A DNA stretch of 6,941 nucleotides from a virus. Taxonomy: Duplodnaviria > Heunggongvirae > Uroviricota > Caudoviricetes. Positions 6,062 through 6,941 of this stretch are shown piece by piece. The notes under the pieces are model-generated. The model worked only from the letters and a program-made list of their open reading frames with translations. It was not told the origin of the DNA and did no database searches. The stretch lies in IMG/VR virus record IMGVR_UViG_2541047442_000018; one strand, 5' to 3'. A program made the position numbers and the translations under genes. Within the stretch, counting starts at the first letter, position 1. Each line of letters begins with the position of its first letter.

Positions 6062-6085
6062 CCGATATGGGAATTCCCATATCGG
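6062..6085. other. perfect 24-bp palindrome CCGATATGGGAATTCCCATATCGG, function unknown
   Basis: Seen in sequence: fully self-complementary over 24 bp. It lies between the AcfC terminator and the hok leader, about 46 bp upstream of the inferred hok mRNA 5' end. No T-run follows on either strand. The sequence is certain; the function is not. Confidence 0.5.
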
Positions 6086-6130
6086 GCGAAAACGGTTTGC
6101 TGTAACGGCAGAGTTAAGTAGGATTGCTGC

Positions 6131-6220
6131 GGGTGCTTGAGGCTATCTGCCTCGGGCATGAACACCAACGGCAGATAGATAAAAGCCCCACCCGACTATA
6201 AATCGAAGTGAGGCCCCTAT
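6131..6220 (+). promoter_or_regulatory. hok mRNA 5' leader with tac/ucb-like alternative hairpins
   Basis: Seen in sequence: the leader begins GGGTGCTTGAGG (6131..6142), which is complementary to a 3' segment at 6483..6495. Overlapping alternative pairings are GAGGC/GCCTC (6138..6152) and ATCTGCC/GGCAGAT (6144..6176). Recall: this matches the plasmid R1 hok leader architecture, with compensatory base changes. Confidence 0.5.
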
Positions 6221-6228
6221 ATGCTCGT
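6180..6228 (-). ncRNA. sok: sok-like antisense RNA (approximate boundaries)
   Basis: Seen in sequence: minus-strand -35 TTGACC (complement of 6259..6264). Minus-strand hairpin GCCTCAC / GTGGGGC (complement of 6209..6215 and 6185..6191) followed by a T-run (complement of 6181..6184). The transcript would be antisense to the upstream SD (GTGAGG 6208..6213) and ATG 6221. The -10 is poor and the ends are not determinable by eye. Confidence 0.35.
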
Positions 6229-6277
6229 CACATATAGATTGCCTCTTACGGACCGAAAGGTCAAGGAGAAGCAGGCT

Positions 6278-6433
6278 ATGAAGCAGCAAAAGGCGATGTT
6301 AATCGCCCTGATCGTCATCTGTTTAATCGTCATAGTGACGGCACTGGTAACGAGGAAAGACCTCTGCGAGGTACGAATCCGAACCGGCCAGACGGAGGTC
6401 GCTGTCTTCGTAGACTACGAATCTGAGAAGTAA
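6278..6433 (+). CDS. hok: Hok/Gef-family type I toxin (51 aa membrane peptide)
   Basis: Seen in sequence: SD AAGGAG (6263..6268), ATG 6278, product MKQQKAMLIALIVICLIVIVTALVTRKDLCEVRIRTGQTEVAVFVDYESEK with one transmembrane helix and the conserved TRKDLCE motif. Recall: near-identical to E. coli HokD/HokC. The ORF-track start at 6221 is an in-frame upstream ATG in the mok position. Confidence 0.9.
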   Translation: MKQQKAMLIALIVICLIVIVTALVTRKDLCEVRIRTGQTEVAVFVDYESEK

Positions 6434-6439
6434 GAGACC

Positions 6440-6500
6440 AAGCGGGGGAGTAATCTCCCGCCACCTCTGATGTGTCAGGCATCCTCAACGCACCCGCGCT
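6440..6500 (+). other. hok mRNA 3' element (fbi-like): hairpin plus segment complementary to the mRNA 5' end
   Basis: Seen in sequence: hairpin GGGAG-TAAT-CTCCC (6446..6459). CCTCAACGCACCC (6483..6495) is the reverse complement of the leader start GGGTGCTTGAGG except for one extra base. Confidence 0.4.
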
Positions 6501-6552
6501 TTACCATACTGAAAATGCTGTTTGAATGTTCATCTCTGAAAGAGGACTATGA

Positions 6553-6897
6553 ATGAAAAAGGTATTGATTGCAGCACTTATTTCTGGTGTGTCTTTTGGC
6601 GCTTTTGCACAGCAGGGCGGTTTCCAAGGGCCTGAAGCAGAGCGTTCAACAGTAGCGCAGGCAAAAGAACTGAAGGATGATGCATGGGTTATCCTTGAAG
6701 GGAGCATCGTTAAAAAAGTGGGTGATGAACGTTATGAGTTTCGTGACAATAGCGGGACAATTGTCACGGATATCGATGACAGCATATGGGCCGGTCAGAA
6801 TGTTTCTCCGAAAGACAAAGTAAGAATTGAGGGTGAAATTGATAAAGACCTGAGCAGTGTTGAAGTGGATGTAAAGGCACTGAAATTATTAAAGTAA
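6553..6897 (+). CDS. YgiW/YdeI (BOF, bacterial OB-fold) family periplasmic protein (114 aa)
   Basis: Seen in sequence: SD GAGGA (6542..6546), ATG 6553, signal peptide MKKVLIAALISGVSFGAFA. Recall: the mature part (QQGGFQGP...DDAWVILEGSIVKKVGDERYEFRDNSGTIVTDIDDSIW...KDKVRIEGEIDKDLSSVEVDVKAL) matches the YgiW/VisP/YdeI pattern closely. Confidence 0.9.
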   Translation: MKKVLIAALISGVSFGAFAQQGGFQGPEAERSTVAQAKELKDDAWVILEGSIVKKVGDERYEFRDNSGTIVTDIDDSIWAGQNVSPKDKVRIEGEIDKDLSSVEVDVKALKLLK

Positions 6898-6913
6898 CCG
6901 TCCCAGCTTGCTA

Positions 6914-6941
6914 AGCCCGTCTTACTGACGGGTTTTCTGTT
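6914..6941 (+). terminator. rho-independent terminator after the YgiW-like gene
   Basis: Seen in sequence: stem CCCGTC (6916..6921) / GACGGG (6927..6932), loop TTACT, then TTTTCTGTT to the window end. Confidence 0.6.

What the first reader, a model, noticed from the sequence alone, without database searches (positions are those of the whole stretch)
6131..6500. Complete hok/sok-type locus in which the mok-position ATG is in frame with hok
The sequence shows a full type I toxin-antitoxin architecture: leader, upstream ATG 6221 with its own SD, hok ORF 6278..6433, an antisense promoter and terminator, and a 3' segment complementary to the 5' end. From my recollection of the plasmid R1 paradigm, mok starts 58 nt upstream of hok in a different frame and ends 4 nt before the hok stop. 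Here the upstream ATG is exactly 57 nt upstream and in frame, and the R1-type mok frame is closed by TAG at 6235..6237. Initiation at 6221 would therefore produce a 70-aa N-extended Hok (MLVTYRLPLTDRKVKEKQA-Hok) rather than a separate Mok. This could be a distinct regulatory variant, a decayed locus, or a 1-nt sequencing error. The compensatory changes in the leader hairpins relative to R1 argue that the RNA structure is under selection.
Basis: partly seen in the sequence, partly recalled or inferred. Interest (0 to 1): 0.6.

Follow-up and report, generated by a model that had tools for sequence, protein, structure and literature searches.

The report
Ordinary prophage hok/mok/sok toxin-antitoxin locus
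This is an intact copy of the well-known hok/sok RNA-controlled toxin-antitoxin module in an E. coli lambdoid prophage, and its leader reading frame (mok) being in frame with the toxin gene is the usual, already annotated arrangement for this branch of the family.

Summary
The region is a complete hok/mok/sok type I toxin-antitoxin locus (Pfam HOK_GEF E 2.5e-21; Rfam RF01794, 103.9 bits). Predicted folding reproduces the published R1 switch: tac pairs with fbi in the full-length mRNA and with ucb after 3' trimming.

The in-frame mok at -57 is not a new variant, decay or a sequencing error. E. coli K-12 mokC/hokC and phage 933W mokW/hokW are annotated with the same geometry: 57 nt upstream, shared stop codon. 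Of 75 distinct related loci, 53 have it, 13 have the R1-like -58 (+1 frame), 5 have -56, and 4 lack a mok-position start. Even plasmids whose Hok is identical to the R1 sequence I queried from memory show both -58 and -57.

The 176-nt leader occurs at >=99% identity in 975 complete E. coli records. The Mok peptide is not conserved, and 57 nt is reached by only 4 of 9 spacing configurations, so selection for the frame itself is not shown.

The locus is a recombinant: a paa-linked hokD-type 5' part joined to a 933W hokW-type 3' part. Verdict: already known, low interest.

The parts
6096..6124 (+). Putative hok promoter: -35 TTTGCT (6096..6101), 17-nt spacer, -10 TAGGAT (6119..6124)
   Evidence: Position homology only. 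K-12 hokC has TATAAT and 933W has TAGAAT at the same distance from the conserved GGGTGCTTGAGG 5' end. It falls below the threshold of the consensus scan.
6131..6500 (+). Full-length hok mRNA (about 370 nt; the 3' end is approximate)
   Evidence: Rfam RF01794 match starts at 6131. The fold gives -145 kcal/mol, z -5.7, with the two ends paired.
6131..6142 (+). tac element (5' end, GGGUGCUUGAGG)
   Evidence: Pairs with 6483..6495 in the full-length RNA (p about 1.0). In the 3'-trimmed RNA, bases 6131..6138 pair with 6183..6189 (p about 0.92). The stem is conserved in 17 homologues, with one compensatory change in hokB.
6143..6178 (+). Leader hairpin CUAUCUGCC / GGCAGAUAG
   Evidence: Covariation at alignment columns 15/64 (UA 9, AU 6, GU 2) and 17/62.
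6183..6189 (+). ucb (AAGCCCC): the anti-SD for mok in the full-length RNA and the partner of tac in the trimmed RNA
   Evidence: and inverted repeat I1.
6210..6213 (+). mok Shine-Dalgarno GAGG
   Evidence: Unpaired probability is about 0 in the full-length fold. GAGG is conserved in the aligned homologues. Le Rhun et al. (PMC9841398) identify a GAGG mok SD in R1.
6221..6433 (+). mok reading frame, in frame with hok (70 codons, shares the hok stop)
   Evidence: Same geometry as the annotated mokC and mokW. The phage record LC567818 annotates this 213-nt ORF as 'gef'.
6241..6245 (+). dcb-like GCCUC that pairs with the mok SD region (GAGGC 6210..6214) in the trimmed RNA
   Evidence: MFE of 6131..6463. 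GCCTCTTAC is invariant in 17 homologues.
6263..6268 (+). hok Shine-Dalgarno AAGGAG
   Evidence: Invariant CAAGGAG in alignment A2. More accessible in the trimmed than in the full-length fold.
6278..6433 (+). hok toxin gene (51 aa)
   Evidence: PF01848 E 2.5e-21. The exact sequence is WP_199899979.1, 'Hok/Gef family protein'.
6442..6461 (+). 3' UTR hairpin GCGGGGGAG-UAAU-CUCCCGC, the likely 3' end of the processed, translatable mRNA
   Evidence: -15 kcal/mol, z -3.0. Its role is inferred by analogy with the last stem-loop of truncated R1 hok mRNA described in PMC9841398.
6483..6495 (+). fbi element (CCUCAACGCACCC), complementary to tac
   Evidence: Pairing probabilities 0.96-1.0. Identical in the 933W and paa-linked homologues.
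6236..6264 (-). Putative sok promoter: -35 TTGACC (6264..6259), 17-nt spacer, -10 CAATCT (6241..6236)
   Evidence: Same position as TTGACC-17-CACTCT upstream of the annotated K-12 sokC start. Not detected by the consensus scan.
6181..6229 (-). Predicted Sok antisense RNA (about 49-59 nt; the 3' end may reach about 6171), covering the mok ATG and SD
   Evidence: The 5' end is placed at mok A+8, as in the annotated sokC and sokW. Stable hairpin followed by UUUU; -26.4 kcal/mol, z -4.2. No expression data.

Best explanation
The region is an intact, ordinary hok/mok/sok type I toxin-antitoxin module in the early region of an E. coli lambdoid prophage. It belongs to the hokC(gef)/hokD/hokW branch of the family.

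Proposed mechanism, following the R1 model:
1. A weak promoter makes a stable, roughly 370-nt hok mRNA.
2. In that RNA the 5' tac element pairs with the 3' fbi element, and the mok Shine-Dalgarno is sequestered by ucb. The full-length RNA can therefore be neither translated nor bound by Sok.
3. Slow 3' trimming removes fbi. tac then pairs with ucb, and the mok initiation region opens.
4. The short, unstable antisense Sok RNA, transcribed from within mok, binds the mok initiation region and blocks mok translation. Because hok translation depends on ribosomes reading through mok, hok is blocked too.
5. If the element and its Sok supply are lost, mok and hok are translated and the 51-aa membrane toxin kills or arrests the cell.

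Here mok starts 57 nt upstream of hok and is in frame. Ribosomes starting at 6221 would therefore make a 70-aa N-extended Hok rather than a separate Mok. This is the commonest arrangement in the clade, not a special variant.

Shown here: the sequence parts, family membership, predicted alternative folds, and how common the in-frame geometry is. Inferred from the R1 literature: transcription of Sok, 3' processing, translational coupling and toxicity.
For: Family membership and folding:
- Pfam HOK_GEF E 2.5e-21. Rfam RF01794, full-length match at 103.9 bits.
- Predicted folds reproduce the published switch. tac-fbi pairing has p about 1.0 in 6131..6500, and tac-ucb pairing p about 0.92 in 6131..6463. 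The mok SD is paired to ucb in the former and to GCCUC (dcb) in the latter. The model is described in PMC9841398.
- Leader stems are conserved across Escherichia, Photorhabdus, Pantoea, Erwinia and IncF plasmid loci, and 4 pairs show double changes.

The in-frame geometry is already annotated:
- K-12: mokC 16751..16960 and hokC 16751..16903 share a stop; sokC is antisense over the mokC start.
- Phage 933W: mokW (213 nt) and hokW (156 nt) share a stop, sokW is antisense, and a YgiW-like gene follows, as in the window.

Survey of 75 distinct loci from GTDB genomes, IMG/VR, K-12 and IncF plasmids:
- 53 are at -57 and in frame.
- 13 are at -58.
- 5 are at -56.
- 4 have no mok-position start.
One search, which deduplicated before phage 933W had been fetched, gave 52 of 74.

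Not an error: the 176-nt leader/mok/hok-start is found at >=99% identity in 975 complete E. coli records.

Context: lambdoid prophage early genes.
Against: - No expression data exist for this copy. The Sok -10 (CAATCT) and the hok promoter are poor consensus matches, and a simple scan reports no promoter or terminator.
- Chromosomal hok loci tested in the literature did not mediate post-segregational killing (as summarised in bioRxiv 10.1101/2025.08.07.668861). The biological role of this prophage copy is therefore uncertain.
- The survey was seeded with this Hok protein, so it over-represents close relatives.
Confidence: 0.87

Rival explanations
1. The in-frame arrangement is itself selected. 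The 70-aa Mok-Hok fusion would then be a second functional toxin or regulatory isoform, making this a distinct regulatory variant of hok/sok.
For: - -57 is the majority state: 53 of 71 loci with a recognisable mok start.
- It is kept in lineages that differ by paired 1-nt or 3-nt indels. Window versus 933W: TT-GCC with GGTCAAGG against TTAGCC with GG-CAAGG. Pantoea / E. tracheiphila: 25+32 against 22+35.
- The extension is Lys/Arg-rich. By inference this is compatible with a cytoplasmic N-terminus.
Against: - The extension is read in different frames internally (RLPLTDRKVKEK, RLASYVPKGKEK, GSLLRAERQGE), so the peptide is not conserved.
- Only 4 of 9 spacing configurations give 57, close to the 1 in 3 expected by chance.
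- -58 and -56 loci are common, and they include the experimentally functional R1 locus.
- Plasmids with identical Hok carry either -58 or -57.
- Published work states that it is mok translation, not the Mok product, that matters (PMC9841398).
- The indels also lie inside the antisense sok promoter (the -35 and the spacer), which gives another reason for length compensation (inference).
Confidence: 0.08
2. The locus is a decayed, non-functional remnant, like the E. coli K-12 hokD (relF) copy that has lost its leader.
For: - K-12 hokD and several other copies lack the whole mok/sok leader (L006, L012, L028, L068).
- The literature reports chromosomal loci as inactive in post-segregational killing.
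- The promoter hexamers here are weak.
- The locus is a recombinant of two types.
Against: - Every element is present and in register: tac, ucb, SDmok, mok ATG, dcb, SDhok, an intact hok ORF, the 3' hairpin and fbi.
- The recombination joins two intact homologues and keeps tac/fbi complementarity.
- The same leader is maintained in 975 records.
Confidence: 0.04
3. A 1-nt sequencing or assembly error created the in-frame arrangement.
For: None beyond the difference from R1.
Against: - The 176-nt stretch 6125..6300 is found at >=99% identity in 975 independent complete E. coli records, and all five top-listed hits are 100%.
- The stretch from the promoter to about 6410 is also essentially identical (a single mismatch) in phage record LC567818.
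- The independently annotated mokC and mokW have the same geometry.
Confidence: 0.01

Closest known systems
hokW / mokW / sokW of Shiga-toxin phage 933W (AF125520)
   Same: - A prophage-borne hok locus in which mok (213 nt) and hok (156 nt) share a stop codon, with mok 57 nt upstream.
- The antisense sok starts at mok A+8.
- It is followed by a YgiW/YdeI-like OB-fold gene.
- From about window 6424 onward the window sequence is identical to this type.
   Different: - 933W has a 21-nt longer Sok-terminator hairpin in the leader.
- It reads TTAGCC...GG-CAAGG where the window has TT-GCC...GGTCAAGG, so the Mok extension has a different sequence.
- Its hok -10 is TAGAAT rather than TAGGAT.
hokC (gef) / mokC / sokC of E. 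coli K-12
   Same: - mokC starts 57 nt upstream of hokC, is in frame and shares its stop.
- Extension MLNTCRVPLTDRKVKEKRA against MLVTYRLPLTDRKVKEKQA here.
- Same TTGACC-17-CA(C/A)TCT sok promoter layout and the same tac sequence.
   Different: - It is a chromosomal locus beside IS186, not in a prophage.
- Hok is 50 aa and about 78% identical.
- The leader is 3 nt longer.
hok / mok / sok (parB) of plasmid R1
   Same: - Same set of elements (tac, ucb, SDmok, dcb, fbi, antisense Sok over the mok initiation region) and the same predicted refolding switch.
- Hok is 42% identical to my from-memory R1 sequence.
- Invariant GCCTCTTAC and CAAGGAG.
   Different: - In R1, mok starts 58 nt upstream, reads in the +1 frame, and ends 4 nt before the end of the hok stop, giving a separate 70-aa Mok.
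- It is plasmid-borne and has demonstrated post-segregational killing.
- Its leader hairpin is longer.
hokD (relF) of the E. coli K-12 Qin prophage, and paa-linked 'hokD' of O157 prophages
   Same: - The O157 / PPompW paa-linked copies are identical to the window from the promoter to about 6412 (one coding difference, T17, in PPompW) and share the in-frame mok.
- They sit in the same prophage neighbourhood (paa upstream).
   Different: - K-12 hokD itself has lost the entire leader, mok and sok, and sits directly after relBE.
- The O157 and PPompW copies have a different Hok C-terminus (FTAYEPEE), 3' hairpin and downstream gene (rem).

Membership tests
[quoted passage not shown] | Small hydrophobic Hok/Gef toxin ORF | tested here: met
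   PF01848 E 2.5e-21, 75.4 bits against a cut-off of 22. NCBIfam Hok subfamily at 49.4 bits is below its cut-off of 73. Exact protein WP_199899979.1 is named 'Hok/Gef family protein'.
[quoted passage not shown] | Conserved structured hok mRNA leader | tested here: met
   Rfam RF01794, full model 1-157, 103.9 bits against a gathering score of 59. Conserved stems with covariation in 17 homologues.
[quoted passage not shown] | Upstream overlapping mok reading frame with its own SD, whose start lies in the Sok target | tested here: met
   GAGG 6210..6213 and ATG 6221, with the ORF running through the hok start. Homologous ATG in 71 of 75 distinct loci.
[quoted passage not shown] | Long-range 5'-3' (tac/fbi) pairing, with an alternative tac/ucb pairing after 3' trimming | tested here: met
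   Predicted only. p about 1.0 for 6131..6142 with 6483..6495 in the full-length RNA, and p about 0.92 for 6131..6138 with 6183..6189 in the trimmed RNA.
[quoted passage not shown] | cis-encoded antisense Sok RNA gene (promoter, 5' tail complementary to the mok initiation region, terminator hairpin) | tested here: inconclusive
   The consensus scan finds no promoter or terminator. Positional homology to the annotated sokC and sokW, plus a hairpin with a U-run (z -4.2), supports it. Transcription cannot be tested here.
[quoted passage not shown] | Toxicity of Hok, and killing or arrest when Sok is lost | not testable with these tools
   Needs experiments.
R1-type gene arrangement (mok at -58, +1 frame, separate 70-aa Mok) | mok out of frame with hok and ending before the hok stop | tested here: not met
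   In the window mok is at -57 and in frame, and the +1 frame is closed by TAG 6235..6237. The R1-type geometry was verified in L116-L118 and in PMC9841398.
hokC/mokC - hokW/mokW-type arrangement (mok in frame, N-extended Hok ORF) | mok ATG 57 nt upstream of the hok ATG, sharing the hok stop codon | tested here: met
   Window 6221 and 6278 share stop 6431..6433. Same geometry as the annotated mokC/hokC and mokW/hokW.

The most novel reading that the evidence does not exclude
The in-frame geometry is maintained by selection, so that mok initiation yields a 70-aa N-extended Hok isoform with its own role. It might, for example, be a less toxic or differently targeted form that tunes killing. Prophage and chromosomal hok loci would then be dual-isoform toxins, unlike R1. 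The evidence does not exclude this: -57 is the majority state and is kept through compensating indels. It does not favour it either: the peptide is not conserved, only 4 of 9 spacing configurations are in frame, and functional loci exist at -58 and -56.
Probability: 0.08. Interest if true: 0.4.

Novelty: already known. Interest (0 to 1): 0.1.

Why it matters
It matters little as a discovery. The arrangement has been in the GenBank annotation of E. coli K-12 (mokC/hokC) and of phage 933W (mokW/hokW/sokW) for a long time.

The check is useful in two small ways:
- The textbook R1 picture of an out-of-frame mok is the minority state among the relatives sampled here. All three frame relations (-56, -57, -58) occur in nature, even among plasmids whose Hok matches the R1 sequence I queried from memory. 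This fits the published view that it is mok translation, not the Mok protein, that matters.
- A recent survey of Hok diversity deliberately left mok unanalysed because calling it is 'not trivial' (bioRxiv 10.1101/2025.08.07.668861). A systematic catalogue of mok geometry would therefore be a modest but real addition.

Tried and rejected
- The consensus promoter/terminator scan of 6000..6560 returned nothing. Promoters were therefore placed only by homology.
- The first leader alignment (A1) used wrong coordinates for the minus-strand and R1-type loci. It was discarded and redone as A2.
- The R1 plasmid record KY749247 is not in the plasmid collection.
- The supplement of PMC9841398, which would hold the R1 construct sequence, is not held. 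The R1 geometry was taken from the mutation numbering in the main text.
- PMC395038 (Thisted et al. 1994) is not held.
- A literature search for 'orf69' with 'gef', the name I recall for the in-frame gef leader ORF, found nothing relevant. That recollection is therefore not used as evidence.
- Selection for the in-frame state was considered and not adopted, because only 4 of 9 spacing configurations give 57 nt.
- Inverted repeat I3 (5993..6004 with 6213..6224) was judged a chance match.

Full report
**Observation**

- GAGG lies at 6210..6213 and ATG at 6221..6223.
- The hok ATG is at 6278 and TAA at 6431..6433.
- The two ATGs are 57 nt apart and in frame. The 6221 ORF encodes MLVTYRLPLTDRKVKEKQA fused to the 51-aa Hok, 70 aa in all.
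- TAG at 6235..6237 closes the +1 frame.

The 51-aa ORF is a Hok/Gef protein (PF01848, E 2.5e-21). That sequence matched thousands of plasmid records at >=99% identity.

Region 6131..6280 matches the whole of Rfam RF01794 at 103.9 bits against a gathering score of 59. That model is named 'sok', but it matches the hok-sense strand and ends on the hok AUG. In practice it describes the hok mRNA leader.

**Context**

The window is an E. coli contig. The exact Hok protein is WP_199899979.1, recorded on a contig of 6941 nt. It carries the early region of a lambdoid prophage:
- a CI/DicA-like repressor, Cro, and YdaT;
- DnaT-like and P-like replication proteins, and DUF1627;
- a Paa/AcfC-family adhesin (named from homologous records), then hok, then a YgiW/YdeI OB-fold protein.

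Bases 1..6505 are 99.6% identical to PPompW-type prophages of Shiga-toxin-producing E. coli.

**Anatomy and predicted mechanism**

Folding 6131..6500 gives -145 kcal/mol (z -5.7). The 5' end (6131..6142, tac) pairs with 6483..6495 (fbi) at probabilities of 0.96-1.0. The mok Shine-Dalgarno is paired with GCCCCA (ucb).

I then removed the 3' tail by folding 6131..6463, which ends just after the strong 3' hairpin at 6442..6461.
- The 5' end (6131..6138) switches to 6183..6189 (ucb) with p about 0.92.
- GAGGC (6210..6214) pairs with the invariant GCCUC (6241..6245, dcb).
- The hok Shine-Dalgarno and AUG become more accessible.

This is the refolding scheme described for R1 hok mRNA (PMC9841398).

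On the minus strand, TTGACC (6264..6259) - 17 nt - CAATCT (6241..6236) sits where K-12 has TTGACC-17-CACTCT ahead of the annotated sokC start. sokC and the 933W sokW both start at mok A+8, which corresponds to 6229 here. Downstream is a stable hairpin followed by UUUU ending at 6181 (-26.4 kcal/mol, z -4.2).

A simple consensus scan reported no promoter or terminator. The Sok gene is therefore inferred from homology and is not demonstrated.

An alignment of 17 leaders was made from Escherichia, Photorhabdus, Pantoea, Erwinia and IncF plasmids. It keeps the tac/ucb stem and the leader hairpin, with compensatory changes in four pairs.

**Is the in-frame mok unusual?**

No. The same geometry is already annotated in two reference records.
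- E. coli K-12: mokC (16751..16960) and hokC (16751..16903) share a stop codon and start 57 nt apart. sokC is antisense across the mokC start. The MokC extension is MLNTCRVPLTDRKVKEKRA.
- Phage 933W: mokW (213 nt) and hokW (156 nt) share a stop and sokW is antisense. The next gene is YgiW-like, as in the window.

One PPompW phage record annotates the 213-nt ORF itself as 'gef'. By contrast, K-12 mokB starts 58 nt upstream of hokB and is out of frame.

I collected hok loci from one-genome-per-species contigs (29 loci), IMG/VR (80 loci), K-12 and IncF plasmids. Among 75 distinct sequences the counts were:

| mok start | Frame relative to hok | Where the mok ORF ends | Loci |
|---|---|---|---|
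| -57 | in frame | shares the hok stop | 53 |
| -58 | +1 | 4, 7, 40 or 43 nt before the end of the hok stop | 13 |
| -56 | +2 | 19-codon ORF ending in an ATGA overlap with the hok start | 5 |
| none | - | leaderless copies such as K-12 hokD, or a mutated start | 4 |

One search, which deduplicated before phage 933W had been fetched, gave 52 of 74.

Mutation numbering in PMC9841398 places the mok ATG at 116..118 and the hok ATG at 174..176, and gives a 70-aa Mok. Three IncF plasmids with Hok identical to my R1 query have mok at -58, 70 codons, ending 4 nt before the end of the hok stop. A fourth plasmid with the same Hok has mok at -57 and in frame, 71 codons. Both states therefore occur even within the R1 type.

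A sequencing error is excluded. The 176-nt stretch 6125..6300 occurs at >=99% identity in 975 complete E. coli records, and all five top-listed hits are 100%.

**Is the frame itself selected?**

The evidence is weak.

In favour: -57 is kept between lineages that differ by paired indels.
- Window against 933W: TT-GCC with GGTCAAGG against TTAGCC with GG-CAAGG.
- Pantoea / E. tracheiphila: 25+32 nt against the common 22+35 nt.

Against:
- The extension peptide is read in different internal frames in different lineages (RLPLTDRKVKEK, RLASYVPKGKEK, GSLLRAERQGE). The peptide is not conserved while the nucleotides GCCTCTTAC and CAAGGAG are invariant.
- Counted as spacing configurations rather than sequences, 4 of 9 give 57 nt. 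That is close to the one in three expected by chance.
- The indels lie inside the antisense sok -35 and spacer. Promoter geometry is therefore an alternative reason for length compensation (inference).
- Published work states that translation of mok up to the hok initiation region matters, not the Mok product (PMC9841398).

I conclude that the frame relation is labile and largely neutral. In-frame is simply the commonest state in this clade.

**What is particular to this copy**

It is a recombinant. From the promoter to about 6412 it is identical to the paa-linked 'hokD' of O157 prophages. The PPompW copy differs in that stretch only at Hok codon 17. From about 6424 onward, through the 3' hairpin, fbi and the YgiW-like gene, it is identical to the 933W hokW type.

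The tac/fbi pairing is unaffected, because fbi is identical in both parents. The resulting Hok (I17 together with ...VFVDYESEK) is rare, recorded on only two contigs.

**Verdict**

The identification as a hok/sok locus is confirmed. The suggestion that the in-frame mok marks a new regulatory variant, decay or an error is not supported. This is an already known arrangement and interest is low.

The only residual novelty is the untested possibility that the N-extended Hok has a role of its own. A recent Hok survey explicitly left mok unanalysed (bioRxiv 10.1101/2025.08.07.668861).

Noticed in passing
window 6412..6424 (breakpoint); 6090..6941 overall: The hok locus is a mosaic. Its 5' part (promoter, leader, mok, sok and most of hok) is identical to the paa-linked hokD-type of O157 prophages, and differs from the PPompW copy only at Hok codon 17. 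Its 3' part (Hok C-terminus, 3' hairpin, fbi and the downstream YgiW-like gene 6553..6897) is identical to the phage 933W hokW module. The resulting Hok protein is recorded on only 2 contigs.
   Followed up: partly
window 6411..6425 (Tyr47 codon TAC at 6416..6418): The Tyr codon sits in UAGA-CUACGAA-UCUG, a small hairpin with a 7-nt loop. The loop resembles, as I recall it, the tRNA-Arg(ACG) anticodon loop. A recent preprint reports TadA A-to-I recoding in hok mRNAs: Tyr29-to-Cys in hokB, and Cys46 in hokC, hokD and hokE (bioRxiv 10.1101/2025.08.07.668861); whether this Tyr47 corresponds is my inference. The hairpin is not more stable than shuffled controls. The recombination breakpoint lies here too.
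   Followed up: partly
window 6062..6085: A perfect 24-nt palindrome, CCGATATGGGAA/TTCCCATATCGG, lies between the paa stop and the hok promoter. It folds at -18.3 kcal/mol, z -4.1, and has no following U-run. It could be a transcription barrier, a processing site or a protein-binding site insulating hok from paa read-through.
   Followed up: partly
window 6131..6280, + strand: Rfam RF01794, named 'sok antitoxin (CssrC)', matches the hok-sense strand over 157 positions and ends on the hok AUG. The family therefore models the hok mRNA leader rather than the roughly 50-60-nt antisense Sok.
   Followed up: no
L005 544..759 against L116-L118 (IncF plasmids): Plasmids whose Hok is 100% identical to the R1 sequence I queried from memory differ around the mok start (ATGTCTGAC against ATGCCTAGAC or ATGCTTAGAC). 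One has mok in frame (71 codons) and the others are out of frame (70 codons).
   Followed up: yes
window 6188..6213 against L007, L010, L119 etc.: Two leader length classes exist among close relatives: about 146 nt (window, paa-linked copies) and about 168 nt (933W and most IMG/VR copies). They differ by a 21-nt insertion that lengthens the hairpin serving as the Sok terminator.
   Followed up: no
window 4391..5023 equivalent (L001 4391..4924): Between DUF1627 and paa, the homologous O157 region is annotated as a frameshifted fimbrial-protein pseudogene. In the window, the same stretch holds only short broken ORFs.
   Followed up: no
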